A stretch of 39,213 nucleotides of DNA, from IMG/VR virus record IMGVR_UViG_2562617057_000005. One strand, written 5' to 3'. Made by a program: the position numbers and the translations under genes. The notes beneath the pieces are model-generated. The model saw nothing but the letters and a program-made list of their open reading frames with translations, made no database searches and was not told the origin of the DNA. The stretch's first letter is position 1, and every line of letters starts with the position of its first letter. Shown here one piece after another: positions 1,566 to 15,214 of the stretch. The DNA is from a virus. Taxonomy: Duplodnaviria > Heunggongvirae > Uroviricota > Caudoviricetes.

Positions 1566-1720
1566 TGATGTTTGACGAGTTGAAGGGACGTGAGATAAAT
1601 GAATGGTGATTCGTGAGATAATTTCGAACGGGAGTGGGTTAAAACGAATGCTACCGAATAATTTTATGAAATTGTTTTGCTGTATGTGAAACGGTAGCAG
1701 TTCACAAAAAACAGAGAATA
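1566..1720 (+). repeat. putative prophage end (att-like) with Mu-type transposase-binding-like motifs
   Basis: 5'-TG at about 1566-1570, then TTGAAGGGACGTGAGATAAA resembling the Mu L1 end site (TTGAAGTACGAAAAA). Nearby are CGTGAGATAA twice (about 1589 and 1612), TTTCGAACGG and TGAAACGG. Position is ±5 bp. Confidence 0.4.
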
Positions 1721-1920
1721 TGAGTGGTAAAATTTCTAATCCGTGTTCCGTGAATGGAGAAATATTGCCCATGCCCGATAAAAATAGCAACCCATCTGAC
1801 TTTTCCGAAGATATGAAAGGATGCGTTACCTTTGAGTCAGAACGTTATGGACCATCAGGCGATTCATCAGATAACTGTTCTTCTCAGTCTGATGACGATG
1901 CACCGCCACCACGGGACTAA
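1720..1920 (+). CDS. hypothetical small acidic protein (66 aa), doubtful
   Basis: ATG ORF with a weak ribosome-binding site; acidic Ser/Asp-rich C-terminus; converges on the 214-aa gene with a 3-4 nt overlap. May be non-coding end sequence. Confidence 0.2.
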   Translation: MSGKISNPCSVNGEILPMPDKNSNPSDFSEDMKGCVTFESERYGPSGDSSDNCSSQSDDDAPPPRD

Positions 1921-2561
1921 TCTTTCTGCCGTGCGCTAATAGCTTTATTTCTGGTTCGTCTGATCCTCACCATGGCAATCTGATCTGCAGGGATATAGGT
2001 TGCCATCGCTCCCCAGCTTTTACTTTCAACATCTTTTTCAATCCATTCATCGCGCCCCGGTTTTTTTTCATGAGTGACATACATCACTATGTCTTTTTCC
2101 ACTCCTAACACAAAAGAACCGCTGGCCTGGCCTTCAAATTTCCCCGGATTTTCAGAAAGCAGCACAGTACCATTCTTCAGATAGACATACGCCTCGCTGA
2201 TATAGTATCCATGTTGATCAAACATACGCATCCAGGCAGAGGGGGTATCATCAGACCATGATATATCCTTATTTCTGAGGAATCTGTACATCCATTTACG
2301 CCCATATTTTCTCCATAATGCAGCGTATGCAAAAGCGCAAAGAAGTGTTGGAGGTGTCGCCAGCCACGAATTCAGACCTGCCCACATAACAGCCTGGTAA
2401 ACCATCATTGACAGCAAACCAAAAATCAGCGTCGAAAACGTCACCTCAATGGGTTTGTGATGGTTCTTCAGCCCCACGTTCGCAATAAAATAGCCGATAT
2501 AACCACTGGTGAGCGTCACCAGCGTTGCCCATGGCAGATTCAGCAAGGATGCATCAAACAT
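1917..2561 (-). CDS. hypothetical membrane protein, three predicted N-terminal TM helices plus a ~120-aa soluble C-terminal domain; candidate prophage cargo (superinfection exclusion or abortive infection-like)
   Basis: 214-aa ORF with GGAGG about 5 nt upstream of the ATG. Hydrophobic stretches at roughly residues 11-31, 40-63 and 68-83. Separated from the upstream mor operon by a hairpin terminator, so probably its own transcription unit. Confidence 0.7.
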   Translation of the reverse strand: MFDASLLNLPWATLVTLTSGYIGYFIANVGLKNHHKPIEVTFSTLIFGLLSMMVYQAVMWAGLNSWLATPPTLLCAFAYAALWRKYGRKWMYRFLRNKDISWSDDTPSAWMRMFDQHGYYISEAYVYLKNGTVLLSENPGKFEGQASGSFVLGVEKDIVMYVTHEKKPGRDEWIEKDVESKSWGAMATYIPADQIAMVRIRRTRNKAISARQKD

Positions 2562-2588
2562 ATTTCCTCCGGTGATATGTTTTTCTGC

Positions 2589-2628
2589 CAGAATAAAAAA
2601 AGCGCAACAGGTTATCCATTGCGCTTTT
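2589..2628. terminator. putative bidirectional rho-independent terminator
   Basis: A7 run, stem AGCGCAA...TTGCGCT, then T run (T7 when read on the minus strand). Sits downstream of the leftward mor operon and upstream of the 214-aa gene. Confidence 0.5.
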
Positions 2629-2655
2629 CATAAACCGGGAATTTATTGACGTTCG

Positions 2656-2847
2656 TTAACACTTTGGTGGCGGTGGTGGTGGGTTACGTAAAACTTTCCC
2701 GTAATACAAAACACAATTTTCATCAGGCCCGATATGCAGGCGCGAGTTGTCAATCAGCCTGTCGCATTCCCGGAGAACATATCTCGCCTCAGCAGAAGTC
2801 AGACCGTCAAAAAAAATGCCGGATAATTTCCATCGCCATATCTGCAT
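2656..2847 (-). CDS. hypothetical 63-aa protein with C-terminal Pro6 run, doubtful
   Basis: ATG ORF with weak AAGG ribosome-binding site between mor and the terminator; low-complexity C-terminus. Confidence 0.25.
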   Translation of the reverse strand: MQIWRWKLSGIFFDGLTSAEARYVLRECDRLIDNSRLHIGPDENCVLYYGKVLRNPPPPPPKC

Positions 2848-2911: not shown

Positions 2912-3298
2912 TTAATCCCGGCTGTCATCCGGTTCATCATCGTCTTCGAATAACTGCCCCTGCAACCGGCTGATTTCTTCCTTTCTTACGCGCTTCACCA
3001 GGTTGTAAATCCAGGGAACTGAAACCCTGAATCTGCGGGACAGTTCGTGGTGGTTACGTCCGTTAAACGCCTCATAGATTTCACGGTCACGCTGGCTTAT
3101 CTTCCATCTCATCCCCATAGGAAAATAAACGTTTTGCCCGCCCCAGACCTGCATCATGCGGTTCGCGACGGCCTGACCAATCTGGTCGGCAACTTCGGGC
3201 TCAATATCAATAATCTCGCGAACGGTCTCAGAGGTATGCTGTGCCAGCTCCACCAGGAGTTCCGGCCCTTTACTTCGAAACTGATTCAGGTCGCTCAT
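2912..3298 (-). CDS. mor: Mor/C-family transcriptional activator (middle operon regulator-like)
   Basis: 128 aa; the segment GGQNVYFP...EIYEAFNGRNHHELSRRFRVS...YNLVKRVRK parallels Mu Mor (GGGQVYIP...FNGRN...). GGGAG ribosome-binding site upstream. Confidence 0.8.
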   Translation of the reverse strand: MSDLNQFRSKGPELLVELAQHTSETVREIIDIEPEVADQIGQAVANRMMQVWGGQNVYFPMGMRWKISQRDREIYEAFNGRNHHELSRRFRVSVPWIYNLVKRVRKEEISRLQGQLFEDDDEPDDSRD

Positions 3299-6479: not shown

Positions 6480-6749
6480 TTACCACAAAGATTCCGGCCA
6501 CACGACGCGACAGCCGTGCAGTTCGAAAACGCCCTGACGGAAATATCCCCTGTGGTCATGTCCGGTATACAGATAACAGGCCTTTCCCTGCTCAAGCATG
6601 CGCATGCAATGCGCACTCCGGGAAACGCGGATGACAGGTTTGTTACCCCTGATGGTGATGCTTTGTACATCCGTGTTCGTCGCCTTAAGTGCCATAATGG
6701 CCGACTGCACTTTGTTAATCTGCTGGCTGATAACTGTGATGGATTTCAT
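6480..6749 (-). CDS. hypothetical protein (89 aa), directly downstream of the B-like gene
   Basis: ORF at the position occupied by kil-type genes in Mu; Cys/His-rich C-terminal half. Confidence 0.5.
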   Translation of the reverse strand: MKSITVISQQINKVQSAIMALKATNTDVQSITIRGNKPVIRVSRSAHCMRMLEQGKACYLYTGHDHRGYFRQGVFELHGCRVVWPESLW

Positions 6750-6751
6750 TA

Positions 6752-7918
6752 TTAAACCCCTTTGACAACGTCAGCGTTGACCTGTGGAACCCCGATTTCA
6801 GCAGCCAGATTCATGGCGGCTATTACCAGGTTACTGACGGCCAGCGGATACAGCAGGCTGACCCTGTTTTTACGGTGACTTCCCGGATTGCTCAGGCGGG
6901 CACGTATGGCATCCACTGCGCCGGCGTCCATAATGTCCGTCAGTTGTTTACCGGCCCGTTGCAGTTTGAACGTCAGAAACTCTTCAAGGTGATTGTCCAG
7001 AGGCAGAAGTTCGACCACCTCACAGCGCTGAACGACTTCACGGACTTCCATATTGCGTTCAGACAGTTTTGTCGCCAGTTCCGGCTGGCCAATCAGCACG
7101 ATGGACAGCAGTTTTTTGAAACCGGATTCCAGCTCAAAAAAGCGTTTGAGGTGTTTCAGTGTCGGAACGGGCAGACTGTGGGCCTCCTCAATCACCAGAA
7201 CGTGGCTGAACCCCGCCTGGCTGCTGTCTTTCAGGACGCGATGCAGCTGGCGAAAGCGGGCGTCCTGACTGCGTCTGATGCTTTCCAGTGGTGCGATGGT
7301 ACTGATAATGGCTTCGGCAATTGCTGCTGCCTTCAGGGTTTTCCCTTTCACATCGTTGTCTTCCATAGCGATGATGTATGGCTCGATAACAATCACCGGC
7401 GCATTCTCGCGGTTGATACGTTCAGTCAGGTCACGGCGCAGCGTGGATTTACCCGCACCGGACTCACCGATGACAGCCATAAACCCACCATGACGGGCTG
7501 TCTGGTACAGCGCCTCACGCACGTAGCGAATGTCCGGGGTGGTGAACACATCATCAGAACCCTGCATGGCTTCATCGGCGAACGGGTCACGGAAAAGACC
7601 AAACGCTTTTTTGGTTGCCGGGAATAACACCTGTTTTTTGAGTAACATGTTCTCTTCCTCACTGAGGTTCGTTTTATCTGTGGTACCCGCTGTACGGGGC
7701 GTGGCCGCGCCCTGTACAGCATCAAAACTCTTCGTTGTATCAATCCCCTGAGTTTCCAGCCAGGACGCAAGACGCCGGCGTACTTCTCCGGGACTGGTGC
7801 GGGGCCACGCGTTATGATTCACAATCTGGGCCAGCGTGGCCTCAGAAACATCGACGGCTCTCGCCACCACCGCCTGTGGAATACGGGCCTCTTTCAGTTG
7901 CTGCTTCAGTACCAGCAT
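6752..7918 (-). CDS. MuB-like transposition ATPase (AAA+), N-terminal HTH
   Basis: Walker A GESGAGKS and Walker B-like VLVIEEAH. The track ORF starts at a TTG at 7945; I place the start at the ATG at 7918, which has GAGGAGGG upstream and lies 10 nt after the transposase stop. Confidence 0.9.
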   Translation of the reverse strand: MLVLKQQLKEARIPQAVVARAVDVSEATLAQIVNHNAWPRTSPGEVRRRLASWLETQGIDTTKSFDAVQGAATPRTAGTTDKTNLSEEENMLLKKQVLFPATKKAFGLFRDPFADEAMQGSDDVFTTPDIRYVREALYQTARHGGFMAVIGESGAGKSTLRRDLTERINRENAPVIVIEPYIIAMEDNDVKGKTLKAAAIAEAIISTIAPLESIRRSQDARFRQLHRVLKDSSQAGFSHVLVIEEAHSLPVPTLKHLKRFFELESGFKKLLSIVLIGQPELATKLSERNMEVREVVQRCEVVELLPLDNHLEEFLTFKLQRAGKQLTDIMDAGAVDAIRARLSNPGSHRKNRVSLLYPLAVSNLVIAAMNLAAEIGVPQVNADVVKGV

Positions 7919-11325: not shown

Positions 11326-11514
11326 TTAGGCTGCCTGAGCCGTTGATTTCAGTCCCAGTTTCACGGCGATTTCATGGGATTTACCGTAACGGGCTTTGGT
11401 CTGCCCGTTGAGAACGCGGTATACCTCATTGCGGTTGTAGCCGTTCTCTTCTGCCCAGCGGGTGAAAGTGATCCCGCGCTGGCGGAAGAGAGCTTTGACT
11501 TGTTCTGCAGTCAT
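11326..11514 (-). CDS. Ner-like small DNA-binding regulator (Cro analogue)
   Basis: 62 aa, first gene of the leftward operon, divergent from the repressor; AAGGAG ribosome-binding site; pattern resembles the Mu Ner/Nlp family. Confidence 0.65.
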   Translation of the reverse strand: MTAEQVKALFRQRGITFTRWAEENGYNRNEVYRVLNGQTKARYGKSHEIAVKLGLKSTAQAA

Positions 11515-11614
11515 CGTTGTCTCCTTTGTTGATGCAATGATGTTTGCCTTATGTGTGATAGATTATGGTGCAGATTACCTCACCAGTCAACTTAAAGAGT
11601 GCAGAAAAACTTAC
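11515..11614. promoter_or_regulatory. divergent early/repressor control region (putative operators and promoters)
   Basis: 100-bp gap between the divergent ner-like and repressor genes; contains GTGCAGA twice (about 11568 and 11600). Confidence 0.45.
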
Positions 11615-11953
11615 ATGATCGGGTTACGTATTAAAGAAGAAAGAGAGCGTCTATCTCTTACACAGCAAGGGTTGGCTGATGCTATAGGTGTGGCAAAGAG
11701 AACTTTCATTGATTGGGAAAAAGATCGCACTTCTCCTACTGCAGTGCAGTTATCTGCACTATCAGAAATCGGTGTAGATGTTTTGTATGTAGTTACTGGG
11801 GTGCGGAATCAGCCTGTTGTTGCACCTTATGTGTCACAAGAAAAAAAAGAGTTAATGGATGCATTCGACGAAATGAGCCCCGAACAACGGAGGGCAATTC
11901 TTGAAGTTGGCAAAGTCTTCATTCAACCCAAACCAAGCAAACTCGCAGGCTGA
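11615..11953 (+). CDS. XRE-family HTH repressor (immunity repressor candidate)
   Basis: Internal ATG of track ORF 11462..11953. LSLTQQGLADAIGVAKRTFIDWEKDRTSP is a classic XRE/Cro-C1 HTH. Divergent from the early operon. Confidence 0.75.
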   Translation: MIGLRIKEERERLSLTQQGLADAIGVAKRTFIDWEKDRTSPTAVQLSALSEIGVDVLYVVTGVRNQPVVAPYVSQEKKELMDAFDEMSPEQRRAILEVGKVFIQPKPSKLAG

Positions 11954-12039: not shown

Positions 12040-12070
12040 CCGGAAAGCATTGCGCTTTCCGGTTCTGTTT
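12040..12070 (+). terminator. putative rho-independent terminator at the repressor/dam convergent junction
   Basis: Stem CCGGAAAGC / GCTTTCCGG with a 5-nt loop, followed by TTCTGTTT; ends at the dam stop codon. Confidence 0.5.
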
Positions 12071-12834
12071 CAGAAGTTGCAGATTACCAGTTCACGGCGC
12101 GGCGTGGGTTTACCTGCCAGACTGTAGTTTATATTCACCGTCTGTATATTCAGTTCAGTGAACACCTCTCGCATCTGTGGGATATCGTTCACCGAAATTA
12201 TCATCTTTCCTTTGATACACCGGGCCAGCTCTGCCAGTCGCGAGTAGTTCCCTTCAGGAAAATCCACACCATAGCCTTCCGTACCCAGGTACGGTGGGTC
12301 GCAGTAGAACAGCGTGTGCGGATGGTCATAACGCTCAATGCACTGTTGCCAGTCCATGTGTTCTATCACCGTTCTGGAAAGTCGCAGGTGTGCCGCTGAG
12401 AGCTCTTCCTCAATACGCAGCAGGTTGAAGCGTGGCGGGGATGTGGTGGAGGTGCCGAAACTATGCTCTGCCACCTTGCCACCAAACGCCTGCTTCTGGA
12501 GGTAGTAGAACCGTGCTGCACGCTGGATATCCGTCAGGGTTTCCTCCGGGGTGATCTGCAGCCATTTGTAGATCTGCCGGCTAACCAGCGCCCATTTGAA
12601 CTGGCGGACAAATTCCTCCAGGTGATGTTTTACCACCCGATACAGATTCACCAGCTCACCGTTGATGTCGTTAATGACTTCGATCCTGCCGGGTGACTTA
12701 AGAAAATAGAGCGCTGCTGCCCCACAGAACGGCTCCACATAACATTCATGCGCCGGAAACAGCGGCAGAATGTGTTTTGCCAGGCGGCGTTTGCCCCCAA
12801 TCCATGGAACGATGGGTAATGTCTGCATTTTCAT
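12070..12834 (-). CDS. DNA adenine methyltransferase, Dam family (orphan, phage-encoded)
   Basis: 254 aa; N-terminus WIGGKRRL...ECYVEPFCGAAALYF parallels E. coli Dam (WAGGK...ECLVEPFVGAGSVF); catalytic DPPY present. Confidence 0.9.
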   Translation of the reverse strand: MKMQTLPIVPWIGGKRRLAKHILPLFPAHECYVEPFCGAAALYFLKSPGRIEVINDINGELVNLYRVVKHHLEEFVRQFKWALVSRQIYKWLQITPEETLTDIQRAARFYYLQKQAFGGKVAEHSFGTSTTSPPRFNLLRIEEELSAAHLRLSRTVIEHMDWQQCIERYDHPHTLFYCDPPYLGTEGYGVDFPEGNYSRLAELARCIKGKMIISVNDIPQMREVFTELNIQTVNINYSLAGKPTPRRELVICNF

Positions 12835-14473: not shown

Positions 14474-15214
14474 ATGAACTGGCCGCAGATCACCTGGATT
14501 GTATGCATGTCCCTGAAACTGGCTTTCGAAGCCTTTCGGGTCTTCATCAGAACCGAACGCCTGTCAGTCCGCGCAGTGACCTTTCTGGTTCATATGGCAT
14601 GGGTATTCTTTGTCGCAATGTTGCTCTGGTGTGGCGGCTTTTTCAGTCAGGCATCCGCAGCACAGCCTCCGCGAGCTGCCCTGCAGTATCGCGATGATGT
14701 GATCCGTAATGCCCGGCTTGAATGGGGACTGTCTGCGCCGGTGGCCGACTTTGCCGCGCAACTGCATCAGGAAAGCGGCTGGCGACCTGATGCGGTCTCG
14801 CCGGCTGGCGCTCAGGGACTGGCGCAGTTCATGCCTGCCACTGCCGACTGGATAAGCCAGATCGTGCCCGCCCTGCGTAGCCGTCAGCCGTTTAATCCGT
14901 CCTGGGCCATCCGGGCGCTGGTCAGCTATGACCGCTGGCTGTGGGAGCGTGTCAGCGCCGCCAGCGACTGCGAGCGTATGGCCATGACACTGTCAGGCTA
15001 TAACGGTGGCCCGGGCTGGGTGCGTCGTGACCAGCGGCTCGCCGCACATCTGGGGCTGGACAGTCAGCGCTGGTTCGGACATGTCGCCACGGTGAATGCC
15101 GGACGCAATGCGGCCAGCTGGCGGGAGAACCGTCATTATCCGCAGCGCATCCTGCGTGAGCTGGCACCGCGATATCTCACATGGGGGGGCAGCAGCTGTG
15201 TGGCATCTGGTTAA
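14474..15214 (+). CDS. endolysin, lytic transglycosylase (SLT domain) with N-terminal signal-anchor/SAR-like segment
   Basis: QESGWRPDAVSPAGAQGLAQFMP is an SLT catalytic-region motif; hydrophobic N-terminal stretch VTFLVHMAWVFFVAMLLWCGGFF. Exact start uncertain. Confidence 0.8.
   Translation: MNWPQITWIVCMSLKLAFEAFRVFIRTERLSVRAVTFLVHMAWVFFVAMLLWCGGFFSQASAAQPPRAALQYRDDVIRNARLEWGLSAPVADFAAQLHQESGWRPDAVSPAGAQGLAQFMPATADWISQIVPALRSRQPFNPSWAIRALVSYDRWLWERVSAASDCERMAMTLSGYNGGPGWVRRDQRLAAHLGLDSQRWFGHVATVNAGRNAASWRENRHYPQRILRELAPRYLTWGGSSCVASG

What the first reader, a model, noticed from the sequence alone, without database searches (positions are those of the whole stretch)
1917..2561. Independently transcribed 214-aa membrane protein at the prophage end: candidate exclusion or abortive-infection cargo
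The gene sits between the last recognisable phage gene (mor) and the prophage end, separated from the mor operon by a hairpin terminator, and has its own strong ribosome-binding site (GGAGG). That placement is typical of morons expressed from the lysogen. The protein has three predicted N-terminal TM helices and a ~120-aa soluble C-terminal domain with no motif I recognise. Single-gene membrane proteins at prophage termini are often superinfection-exclusion or abortive-infection factors. I could not assign it to any known family, so it may be new.
Basis: partly seen in the sequence, partly recalled or inferred. Interest (0 to 1): 0.7.

Follow-up and report, generated by a model that had tools for sequence, protein, structure and literature searches.

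The report
Prophage membrane protein with tiny partner
The flagged gene is real, mobile prophage cargo encoding a three-helix membrane protein with an Sm-like cytoplasmic domain, and it almost always travels with a tiny, disordered, proline-rich gene facing it tail-to-tail; the pair looks like an undescribed phage-conflict cassette, but its function is untested.

Summary
The ORF at 1917-2561 (-) is a genuine gene in an E. coli Mu-like transposable prophage whose end lies at about 1581. The upstream terminator, the GGAGG site, three N-terminal helices and a 117-aa C-terminal domain are all confirmed. The protein belongs to PHROG 12870 (unknown function) and is a distant relative of Pfam DUF6338. 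No defence-system model, solved structure or paper describes it.

New findings:
- The C-terminal domain has an Sm/LSm fold and is predicted to be cytoplasmic.
- The gene is not single. A 49-aa disordered, proline-rich gene (1771-1920, +) abuts it tail-to-tail, and this pairing holds in about 29 of 35 lineages across Alpha- and Gammaproteobacteria.
- The pair is accessory cargo. It occurs in 132 of 640 E. coli genomes carrying the related gemA-mor region, has 45% GC against 54-56% for the prophage, and sits in different slots of several phage types and small islands. Some of those islands also carry ThsB-, LmuB- or RmrA-like genes.

Independent transcription of the membrane gene is not shown. 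The small gene is the one with a recognisable sigma-70 promoter.

Best reading (inference): a two-gene conflict cassette with a membrane effector restrained by a labile partner.

The parts
1581..1719 (.). Terminal segment of the Mu-like prophage (att end). It carries two direct repeats GTGAGATAA(A/T)T at 1590-1600 and 1613-1623, which look like transposase-binding sites.
   Evidence: Matches in other E. coli genomes begin at window 1581 with different host flanks. Repeats found. Similar ends in L001 and L060.
1725..1733 (+). Extended -10-like element TGGTAAAAT, the candidate promoter of the small partner gene (inferred).
   Evidence: Read from the sequence. Orthologous loci L001, L032, L034, L051 and L052 have a near-consensus TTGAAA-N18-TAGAAT at the equivalent place.
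1771..1920 (+). Small partner gene: 49 aa, hydrophilic and intrinsically disordered, with a DFSEDMKG motif and a C-terminal APPPRD. RBS GGAG at 1756-1759. An upstream in-frame ATG at 1720 would give 66 aa.
   Evidence: The ORF is listed. The 49-aa form matches the NCBI-annotated E. coli hypothetical protein P0240 at 98% identity (one residue differs). Homologous partners occur in about 29 of 35 lineages. dN/dS is 0.15-0.32. AF2 gives no secondary structure and pTM 0.14.
1917..2561 (-). Target gene: 214-aa inner-membrane protein (PHROG 12870; distant DUF6338). Its stop codon overlaps the partner gene's stop by 4 nt.
2271..2561 (-). Codons 1-97: three helices (11-28, 37-60, 65-97) with predicted N-out/C-in topology. 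TM1 plus loop 1 (LPWATLVTLxSGYxGYFIANVG..HHK) is the most conserved part of the protein.
   Evidence: AF2 model. Charge distribution: N-terminus -1.2, loop 1 +0.9, loop 2 -0.2, post-TM3 +4.6. Region-wise identity.
1920..2270 (-). Codons 98-214: conserved ISWSDDTPSAW motif followed by an Sm/LSm-like beta-barrel, predicted to be cytoplasmic.
2566..2570 (-). Shine-Dalgarno sequence GGAGG, 4 nt upstream of the ATG.
   Evidence: Read from the sequence.
2590..2629 (-). Intrinsic terminator (14-bp stem, 5-nt loop, T7 run) between the early operon and the target gene. On the + strand the same hairpin is followed by TTTT, so it may also stop the convergent transcript from the small gene.
   Evidence: The hairpin is conserved, with compensatory changes, in L011, L001, L032, L029 and L028.
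2656..2847 (-). 63-aa ORF between mor and the terminator. GC is 47% and the C-terminus is NPPPPPPKC. It is possibly part of the same acquired segment; function unknown.
2912..3298 (-). mor, the last backbone gene of the early operon.
   Evidence: Pfam Mor, E 5.2e-41. In relatives that lack the cargo it is the last gene, about 145 nt from host DNA.

Best explanation
The target is one half of a small, horizontally mobile two-gene cassette carried as cargo by prophages and recombinase-bounded islets.

**Component A** (214 aa) is an inner-membrane protein. Its N-terminus is outside, it has three helices, and it ends in a cytoplasmic Sm-like beta-barrel.

**Component B** (49 aa here) is an intrinsically disordered protein. 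It carries N(Y/H/F)xP-type motifs and a polyproline-lysine tail, and it is encoded tail-to-tail with A from its own sigma-70 promoter.

**Most likely function (inferred): a conflict module of the abortive-infection or exclusion/toxin-antitoxin type.**
- A oligomerises through its Sm-like domain, as Sm-fold proteins usually do, into a membrane assembly that can perturb the membrane in a holin-like or MscS-like way.
- B holds A in check, both by binding the barrel through its proline-rich motifs and by convergent (antisense) transcription.
- Loss of the labile B, or a surge of A expression, during phage infection or induction releases A.

**Shown:** gene structures, fold, predicted topology, co-occurrence and purifying selection of B, cargo status, and genomic contexts.

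**Inferred:** oligomerisation, A-B binding, toxicity, the trigger and the phenotype.
For: - **A is real and widespread.** There are 529 50%-identity clusters, and of the best 150 shown most are about 200-215 aa (range 131-328) and match over nearly their whole length.
- **B is a real gene tied to A.** 24 of 30 lineages have a convergent 45-90-aa ORF ending within -5 to +50 nt of A's stop, against 40 of 249 other genes (Fisher p 2e-12). More partners, uncalled by gene finders, turned up in L065-L068.
- **B forms a family.** A profile of the partners finds 19 hypothetical proteins of 49-64 aa. All three loci anchored on a partner have an A homologue facing it.
- **B is under selection and disordered.** dN/dS is 0.15-0.32. 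It is disordered by AF2 and by composition.
- **B has its own promoter.** A conserved TTGAAA-N18-TAGAAT lies upstream in five enterobacterial loci.
- **Cargo status.** gemA-mor occurs in 640 E. coli genomes but the module in only 132. mor is the terminal gene in strains 81009 and FDAARGOS_1249. GC is 45% against 54-56%.
- **Different slots.** It sits beside the repressor in the Mu-like phage L050, in a lambdoid-like Bartonella prophage, beside terminase or head genes, and on a plasmid.
- **Conflict neighbourhoods.** Neighbours include ThsB-TIR/SLATT, an LmuB-like ATPase and an RmrA/CapP-like peptidase, and HigB, HicB, SocA and an HD protein with Pfam HD + HD_assoc domains (possibly dGTPase-like).
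- **Mosaic exchange.** The TM part and the barrel part have been swapped between lineages.
Against: - No PADLOC, Pfam-named or NCBIfam match links A or B to any tested defence or toxin-antitoxin family.
- No paper was found.
- Co-location with defence genes is anecdotal; no enrichment statistic was computed.
- A has no recognisable promoter of its own. In the enterobacterial Mu-like prophages sampled it sits at the end of the lytic early operon; in another Mu-like phage (L050) it lies beside the repressor instead. In L030 it directly abuts an early-operon ORF. That placement fits a phage-benefit early gene equally well.
- Convergent gene order is atypical for protein toxin-antitoxin pairs.
- TM1 and TM3 are only marginally hydrophobic.
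Confidence: 0.45

Rival explanations
1. A is a phage-benefit early gene. It is made during the prophage's own lytic cycle by read-through from the early operon. There it acts on the membrane, for example to exclude secondary infection during lytic growth, to tune lysis timing, or to take over host functions. B, together with antisense transcription, only silences leaky A in the lysogen.
For: - In the enterobacterial Mu-like loci sampled the gene is co-oriented with mor and lies immediately downstream of it.
- In L030 it abuts the upstream ORF with no terminator.
- No promoter specific to A was found.
- B has a sigma-70 promoter, and in L050 it lies co-oriented downstream of the CI-like repressor gene.
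- The helical part gives weak structural matches to three-helix holins, E 0.03-0.7.
Against: - About 500 of 640 E. coli genomes with the related gemA-mor region lack it, so it is dispensable.
- It also occurs outside phages, in recombinase-bounded islets, on a plasmid and in chromosomal spots.
- A strong terminator precedes it in most Mu-like loci.
Confidence: 0.2
2. A is a classical superinfection-exclusion protein that blocks DNA entry at the inner membrane without killing the cell, in the manner of T4 Imm or HK97 gp15. B would be incidental or purely regulatory.
Against: - The conserved soluble domain is predicted to be cytoplasmic, not periplasmic.
- The tight, selected pairing with B is not explained.
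- Occurrence in non-phage islets next to abortive-type systems fits less well.
Confidence: 0.1
3. The pair is an addiction (post-segregational killing) module that stabilises the mobile element, with no role against other phages.
For: - The pair is tightly linked, with one membrane protein and one small labile-looking protein.
- The convergent overlapping arrangement recalls type I toxin-antitoxin loci.
- It often lies among other toxin-antitoxin genes.
Against: - A Mu-like prophage integrated in the chromosome gains little from addiction.
- A is far larger than type I toxins.
- B is a conserved protein and not merely an RNA.
Confidence: 0.1
4. It is a lysogenic-conversion function unrelated to conflict, for example a small ion channel or stress-response membrane protein. 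This reading draws on the MscS-like layout of three helices followed by an Sm-like domain.
For: The architecture and topology parallel the MscS core: three TM helices, N-out/C-in, followed by an Sm-like beta domain (the MscS comparison is from my own knowledge).
Against: - There is no sequence or profile similarity to MscS (hhalign probability 0.3%).
- No MscS chain appears among the top structural matches.
- Distribution is restricted to mobile elements.
- The partner gene is unexplained.
Confidence: 0.07

Closest known systems
PHROG 12870 / Pfam DUF6338 (PF19865)
   Same: The protein matches PHROG 12870 over its full length (E 6.9e-92). It has the same length and layout as DUF6338, and 25 of 49 homologues touch that model (best E 1.4e-6).
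   Different: Both are catalogue entries with no function, no structure and no described partner gene. The window protein itself scores below Pfam's threshold (16.3 bits against 26.5).
P22/lambda SieB with Esc and the sas antisense RNA (own knowledge)
   Same: This is a prophage-encoded membrane protein that aborts other phages. It is kept harmless to its own phage by a small product of the same locus and by an antisense transcript. That is the same logic as the one proposed here.
   Different: There is no sequence relationship (no Pfam SieB hit at E <= 1). Esc is an in-frame fragment of SieB, not a separate convergent gene. SieB has no Sm-like domain.
MscS mechanosensitive channel core (own knowledge)
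   Same: Three TM helices with N-out/C-in topology are followed directly by an Sm-like beta domain. Sm-fold domains assemble into rings.
   Different: There is no detectable sequence or profile similarity. The MscS alpha-beta domain is missing. No MscS chain is among the top structural hits. The oligomeric state is unknown.
Type I toxin-antitoxin loci with convergent 3' overlap, e.g. B. subtilis txpA/RatA and bsrG/SR4 (own knowledge)
   Same: The arrangement is tail-to-tail, with the two transcripts forced to overlap at their 3' ends. The loci are carried by prophages, and the toxin is a membrane protein.
   Different: Here the membrane protein has 214 aa with a folded domain, against fewer than 60 aa for those toxins. 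The opposing gene encodes a conserved protein under purifying selection.
Class I holins (own knowledge)
   Same: Three TM helices with N-out/C-in topology and a basic cytoplasmic segment after TM3. There are weak Foldseek matches to LydA-type holins (E 0.03-0.7).
   Different: The gene is not in the lysis cassette (the window's SLT endolysin is at 14474-15214). The protein is twice the size of a holin and carries a folded C-terminal domain. It has no holin Pfam hit.
Morons of temperate phages (concept from HK97/lambdoid phage work; own knowledge)
   Same: It is an extra segment present in some relatives and absent from others. It has atypical GC and is bounded by transcription signals.
   Different: It is a two-gene convergent unit. 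Only the small gene has a recognisable promoter.

Membership tests
PHROG 12870 | Significant full-length match to the family HMM | tested here: met
   E 6.9e-92; residues 1-205 align to profile positions 1-206 of 210.
Pfam DUF6338 (PF19865) | Score at or above the Pfam gathering threshold (26.5 bits) | tested here: not met
   The window protein scores 16.3 bits, E 0.0075.
Pfam DUF6338 (PF19865) | Family-level relatedness: homologues of the query match the model over the same region | tested here: inconclusive
   25 of 49 homologues match at E <= 0.01, best 1.4e-6. Several database homologues carry a precomputed PF19865 hit. This indicates a sister or divergent subfamily rather than a core member.
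Known anti-phage defence systems (PADLOC-DB 2.0) | Match to any defence-protein HMM | tested here: not met
   No hit at E <= 1 for the 214-aa protein, the small partner or the 63-aa ORF.
SieB superinfection exclusion family (Pfam SieB) | Match to the Pfam SieB model | tested here: not met
   The Pfam scan at E <= 1 lists only DUF6338 and a chance FTR1 hit.
MscS channel family | Sequence or profile similarity to MscS | tested here: not met
No MS_channel Pfam hit. No PDB sequence hit.
MscS channel family | Three TM helices (N-out/C-in) followed directly by an Sm-like beta domain | tested here: met
MscS channel family | Heptameric pore lined by TM3 | not testable with these tools
   No multimer prediction is available.
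Moron (accessory phage cargo) | Present in some and absent from other closely related phages | tested here: met
   gemA-mor is found in 640 E. coli genomes and the module in 132. mor is the terminal gene in L060 and L061.
Moron (accessory phage cargo) | Base composition different from the phage backbone | tested here: met
   GC is 0.45 for both genes, against 0.54 for the early region and 0.56 for the late region.
Moron (accessory phage cargo) | Own promoter and terminator | tested here: inconclusive
   The terminator upstream of A is real. B has a sigma-70-like promoter. No promoter was found for A.
Type II toxin-antitoxin | Co-directional bicistronic operon with a folded, usually DNA-binding, antitoxin | tested here: not met
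   The genes are convergent with overlapping stops. The partner has no predicted fold and no Pfam hit.
Type I toxin-antitoxin (convergent class) | Convergent transcripts overlapping at their 3' ends | tested here: met
   The stops overlap by 4 nt in the window. The offset is -3 to +8 nt in most lineages, which leaves no room for terminators.
Type I toxin-antitoxin (convergent class) | Toxin is a small hydrophobic peptide of fewer than 60 aa, and the antitoxin is a non-coding RNA | tested here: not met
   A has 214 aa with a folded domain. The opposing gene encodes a protein under purifying selection.
Holins | Holin family HMM match and location in the lysis cassette | tested here: not met
   No holin Pfam or PHROG hit. 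The lysis genes lie about 12 kb away. Only weak structural matches to three-helix holins, E >= 0.03.

The most novel reading that the evidence does not exclude
A previously unrecognised class of two-gene conflict system. A ring-forming, Sm-domain-anchored membrane pore (three helices per subunit) is gated by a convergently encoded, intrinsically disordered peptide. That peptide carries N(Y/H)xP repeats and a polyproline tail and binds the Sm-like/SH3-like barrel multivalently. Loss of the labile peptide, or of its antisense transcription, on phage attack opens the pore and aborts infection. Neither component resembles any described defence or toxin-antitoxin protein.
Probability: 0.2. Interest if true: 0.75.

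Novelty: new variant of a known kind. Interest (0 to 1): 0.55.

Why it matters
If the cassette is a defence or toxin-antitoxin-like module, it would add a compact system of about 0.85 kb, widely spread across at least Alpha- and Gammaproteobacteria (529 50%-identity clusters). Its parts are not seen in any described system: a membrane-anchored Sm-like domain and a disordered proline-rich partner encoded tail-to-tail.

It would also give a function to PHROG 12870 and a lead for DUF6338.

The E. coli population offers natural controls. About 500 genomes carry near-isogenic prophages without the cassette, and two barrel-and-partner types share one TM domain. This makes the hypothesis cheap to test.

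If instead it is a phage-benefit early gene, it still shows how a lysogen can silence a lytic membrane protein with a convergent small gene.

Tried and rejected
- **A:B complex model.** I built 22 paired A + linker + B sequences (A2).
- **afdb50 fold search.** Not available on the machine.
- **Sequence links to solved structures and MscS.** None found.
- **PADLOC and NCBIfam.** No meaningful hit.
- **Isolated phage genomes.** Only one distant hit, Synechococcus phage Ssp-JY41, at a record end.
- **Plasmids.** One distant hit.
- **Mor-dependent promoter.** I looked for an 11-mer shared between the region upstream of the target and the late-operon intergenic regions. Nothing was shared, so Mor control is neither supported nor excluded.
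- **Is the hairpin a protein-binding dyad rather than a terminator?** Rejected, because the stem sequence differs between loci while pairing is kept by compensatory changes.
- **Literature.** Searches for DUF6338, for Sm-like with anti-phage, for Mu-like prophage morons, and for accession numbers found nothing relevant.
- **Genome-contig scan.** It returned only 9 loci because the peptide pattern was narrow.
- **The 66-aa reading of the small ORF.** Rejected in favour of 49 aa. The RBS lies before the ATG at 1771, the promoter-like element lies inside the longer ORF, orthologue L011 starts at the corresponding Met, and NCBI annotates the 49-aa form.
Full report
**Setting.** The window starts with E. 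coli clcA (1-1422, -) and then enters a Mu-like transposable prophage. In other E. coli genomes the matching DNA begins at window position 1581 and is flanked by different host genes (ycbJ, yeiE, nlpA and others). This is what a transposable phage gives, and it fixes the prophage end at about 1581.

The early operon runs on the minus strand toward this end. In order it carries an IclR-type HTH gene, a DUF3102 gene, an rve transposase, an AAA_22 MuB-like ATPase, Gam, DUF2786/DUF7168, GemA and Mor. An HTH_3 repressor-like gene (11462-11953, +) and a D12 Dam-like methylase (12070-12834, -) follow. The late genes start near 13.4 kb on the plus strand. The layout is therefore Mu-like with the early region inverted, so the last early genes lie next to the prophage end.

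**Checking the observation.** The 214-codon ORF at 1917-2561 (-) is present. GGAGG lies 4 nt upstream of its ATG. Upstream, at 2629-2597 (-), there is a 14-bp hairpin followed by a T7 run. Its MFE is -18.9 kcal/mol with z = -4.7 against shuffles. In six orthologous loci the stem is kept while its sequence changes, with 5 of 13 pairs showing changes on both sides. This argues for an RNA terminator rather than a protein-binding dyad.

An AlphaFold2 model built on 49 homologues is confident (mean pLDDT 85.7). It shows helices at residues 11-28, 37-60 and 65-97, then a beta-rich domain. Only TM2 passes a strict hydropathy cut; TM1 and TM3 average about 1.2 on the Kyte-Doolittle scale. Net charge over 49 homologues is N-terminus -1.2, loop 1 +0.9, loop 2 -0.2 and the segment after TM3 +4.6. 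This places the N-terminus outside and the C-terminal domain in the cytoplasm. The sequence-level observation is correct.

One is a 63-aa ORF (2656-2847, -). The other is a small plus-strand ORF whose stop overlaps the target's stop.

**Family.** The protein matches PHROG 12870 end to end (E 6.9e-92, function unknown). It matches Pfam DUF6338 weakly (16.3 bits, below the 26.5 cut-off), and 25 of 49 homologues touch that model (best E 1.4e-6).
- There is no PADLOC or meaningful NCBIfam hit.
- No sequence relative has a solved structure.
- Every database name is 'hypothetical protein'. The exact sequence occurs on 662 contigs.
- A profile search of 1.84 billion representatives finds 529 clusters. 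Of the best 150 shown, most are about 200-215 aa (range 131-328) and match over nearly their whole length.
- Hosts with named homologues include E. coli, Salmonella, Klebsiella, Proteus, Serratia, Citrobacter, Arsenophonus and Symbiopectobacterium. Outside the Enterobacterales they include Bartonella, Bradyrhizobium, Afipia, Mesorhizobium, Devosia, a sphingomonad and Rhodobacteraceae.
- No paper in the searchable library deals with it.

No full-length structural analogue exists in the PDB. Among viral predicted structures one uncharacterised 197-aa protein matches (E 8e-6), and three-helix holins match weakly (E >= 0.03). The layout recalls the MscS core, which also has three helices with the N-terminus outside followed by an Sm-like domain (my own knowledge). 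However, a profile comparison with MscS is negative.

**The gene is not alone.** In Bradyrhizobium, Bartonella and E. coli M-17 a small ORF of about 55 aa on the opposite strand abuts the 3' end of the homologue. A scan of all fetched loci shows the same thing in almost every lineage that has enough downstream sequence.
- 24 of 30 lineages have a convergent 45-90-aa ORF ending within -5 to +50 nt of the stop, against 40 of 249 other genes in the same loci (Fisher p 2e-12).
- Counting shorter partners and partners missed by gene callers, about 29 of 35 assessable lineages have one.
- The small proteins are homologous to one another. The consensus is MTEKK..(D/E)N(H/Y)xPxT..KKN(F/Y)VPQTG..VQGNHxPTTSE..PSTPPPSPKKK in Alphaproteobacteria. 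In Enterobacterales it reduces to ..D(Y/F)SE(N/D)xKG..VTFE..PPxP(K/R)...
- A profile of them retrieves 19 hypothetical proteins of 49-64 aa. One is a 49-aa E. coli entry that differs from window 1771-1920 at one residue (98% identity).
- Starting from three such small proteins, the neighbouring convergent gene was a homologue of the target every time (E 1e-41 to 5e-48).
- Where synonymous sites are not saturated, dN/dS of the small ORF is 0.15-0.32, so the reading frame is under purifying selection.
- The protein is about 80-88% disorder-type residues, has no hydrophobic segment, and AF2 gives no secondary structure (pTM 0.14).
- Two sphingomonad-type loci carry two tandem short copies.
- One subfamily (L047, L039) instead has a 129-134-aa multi-TM protein downstream.

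**Transcription signals.** In five enterobacterial loci the small gene is preceded by TTGAAA-N18-TAGAAT. In the window the equivalent is TGGTAAAAT at 1725-1733, with GGAG at 1756-1759 ahead of the ATG at 1771. The small gene is therefore the one with a recognisable sigma-70 promoter.

In the related Mu-like phage L050 the small gene also lies co-oriented downstream of the CI-like repressor gene.

For the 214-aa gene no promoter-like site was found in the 35 nt between terminator and start codon. Nothing in that stretch is shared with the late intergenic regions. In L030 and L026 there is no terminator upstream of the gene, and in L030 it directly abuts an 85-aa early-operon ORF. 'Independently transcribed' is therefore unproven.

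Because the two stops are 0-8 nt apart in most lineages, the two transcripts must overlap antisense. On the plus strand the upstream hairpin is followed by TTTT and could end the small gene's transcript (inference).

**Cargo status.**
- The gemA-mor segment is found in 640 of 5,426 complete E. coli genomes, and the module in only 132.
- In strains 81009 and FDAARGOS_1249 mor is the last gene, about 145 nt from host DNA.
- GC is 45% for both module genes, against 54% for the early region and 56% for the late region.
- The module occupies other slots elsewhere: between the repressor and the lysis genes of a related Mu-like phage (L050), after SSB in a Bartonella prophage beside SocA, Rha and HicB, next to terminase or head genes, and on a 16.6-kb plasmid.
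- It also sits in small islets bounded by serine recombinases.
- Some neighbours are known conflict genes: ThsB-type TIR (E 1.7e-46) with SLATT, an LmuB-like ATPase (E 1.4e-19) and an RmrA/CapP-like peptidase (E 4e-21). Others are HigB-like toxin and an HD protein with Pfam HD + HD_assoc domains (possibly dGTPase-like).
- The protein is mosaic. E. coli variants share 89-97% identity with the window protein over the helices but about 50% over the barrel, while other lineages show the reverse.

**Interpretation.** Firmly supported: this is a mobile two-gene accessory cassette, made of an inner-membrane protein with a cytoplasmic Sm-like barrel and a disordered proline-rich partner encoded tail-to-tail.

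What it does is inference. I favour a conflict function at about 0.45, with this reasoning:
- Sm-fold domains normally form rings, which would bundle 15-21 helices into a membrane assembly.
- SH3-like barrels bind proline-rich peptides, and the partner offers a PPPxPKKK tail plus 1-3 N(Y/H/F)xP motifs, or two gene copies. That suggests multivalent binding.
- A constitutively made, labile inhibitor plus antisense transcription is a familiar way to hold a membrane effector until infection perturbs host expression. P22 SieB with Esc and sas, and type I toxin-antitoxin loci, work this way (my own knowledge).

The main rival (0.2) is that A is a lytic early product that serves the phage, and that B merely silences it in the lysogen. 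The position after mor, the missing promoter and L030 all favour this. Dispensability and the non-phage contexts argue against it. Pure DNA-entry exclusion, addiction only, and a channel-type conversion function are less likely.

**Verdict.** The finding is real and better than ordinary, but its headline needs three corrections. It is not a single gene. Independent transcription has not been shown. It is not outside every catalogue.

Its value lies in the conserved pairing and the unusual parts. It is a concrete, cheaply testable candidate for a new compact conflict system, not yet a demonstrated one.

Noticed in passing
window 2656-2847 (-): A 63-aa ORF lies between mor and the terminator. 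Its GC is 47% and it ends in NPPPPPPKC, a polyproline-lysine tail reminiscent of the small partner's tail. It has no hit in any family library. It is present only in window-type loci and L013.
   Followed up: partly
window 12070-12834 (-): A D12-class Dam-like methyltransferase sits in the gap between the repressor and the late genes. In the related Mu-like phage L050 that same slot holds the 3TM-plus-small-gene module, so this phage family has at least two cargo slots.
   Followed up: partly
window 1581-1720: The prophage end carries two direct repeats GTGAGATAA(A/T)T (1590-1600 and 1613-1623) and a CTGTATGTGAAA element at 1679-1690. Similar ends occur in L001 and L060, and most related loci have CAGTATGTGAAA in place of that element. 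These are probably transposase-binding sites. No copy of the repeat was found elsewhere in the window, so the other prophage end is either different or lies outside the window.
   Followed up: partly
window 1690..1661 (-): An outward-facing promoter-like site (TTCACA-N18-TAAAAT, 10 of 12 matches) inside the prophage end points toward clcA, whose start codon is at 1422. The prophage sits only 159 nt upstream of clcA and could alter its expression.
   Followed up: no
L042 6600-6850; L068 2750-3000: Sphingomonad-type loci carry two tandem short partner genes (34-44 aa in L042, 35 aa in L068) instead of one. One copy in each locus contains RPVYIPDSxQPKxPPPPPP. The hexapeptide RPVYIP also occurs in the insect peptide apidaecin (my own knowledge), which is probably coincidence.
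   Followed up: no
L047 8724-9113; L039 about 6735-7140: In one subfamily of the membrane protein the convergent downstream gene encodes a 129-134-aa multi-TM protein instead of the small disordered partner.
   Followed up: no
L003 7658-7927; L056 5122-5835; L063 40-1845 and 9874-10165; L065 3219-3758: In Alphaproteobacteria a serine recombinase or resolvase gene often lies right beside the module. This suggests the module can travel as a mini-cassette with its own recombinase.
   Followed up: no
alignment A1 (homologues P0005, P0008 versus P0011, P0014, P0016): Domain-wise mosaicism. The helical part and the barrel part of the protein have different phylogenetic affinities, which implies recombination at the domain junction. 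The barrel and the adjacent partner gene tend to change together.
   Followed up: partly
L002 (Synechococcus phage Ssp-JY41, record 1-744): The only isolated phage in the GenBank collection with a homologue (30% identity) is a 20-kb cyanophage record. The gene lies at the very end of that record, so whether a partner gene is present could not be assessed.
   Followed up: no
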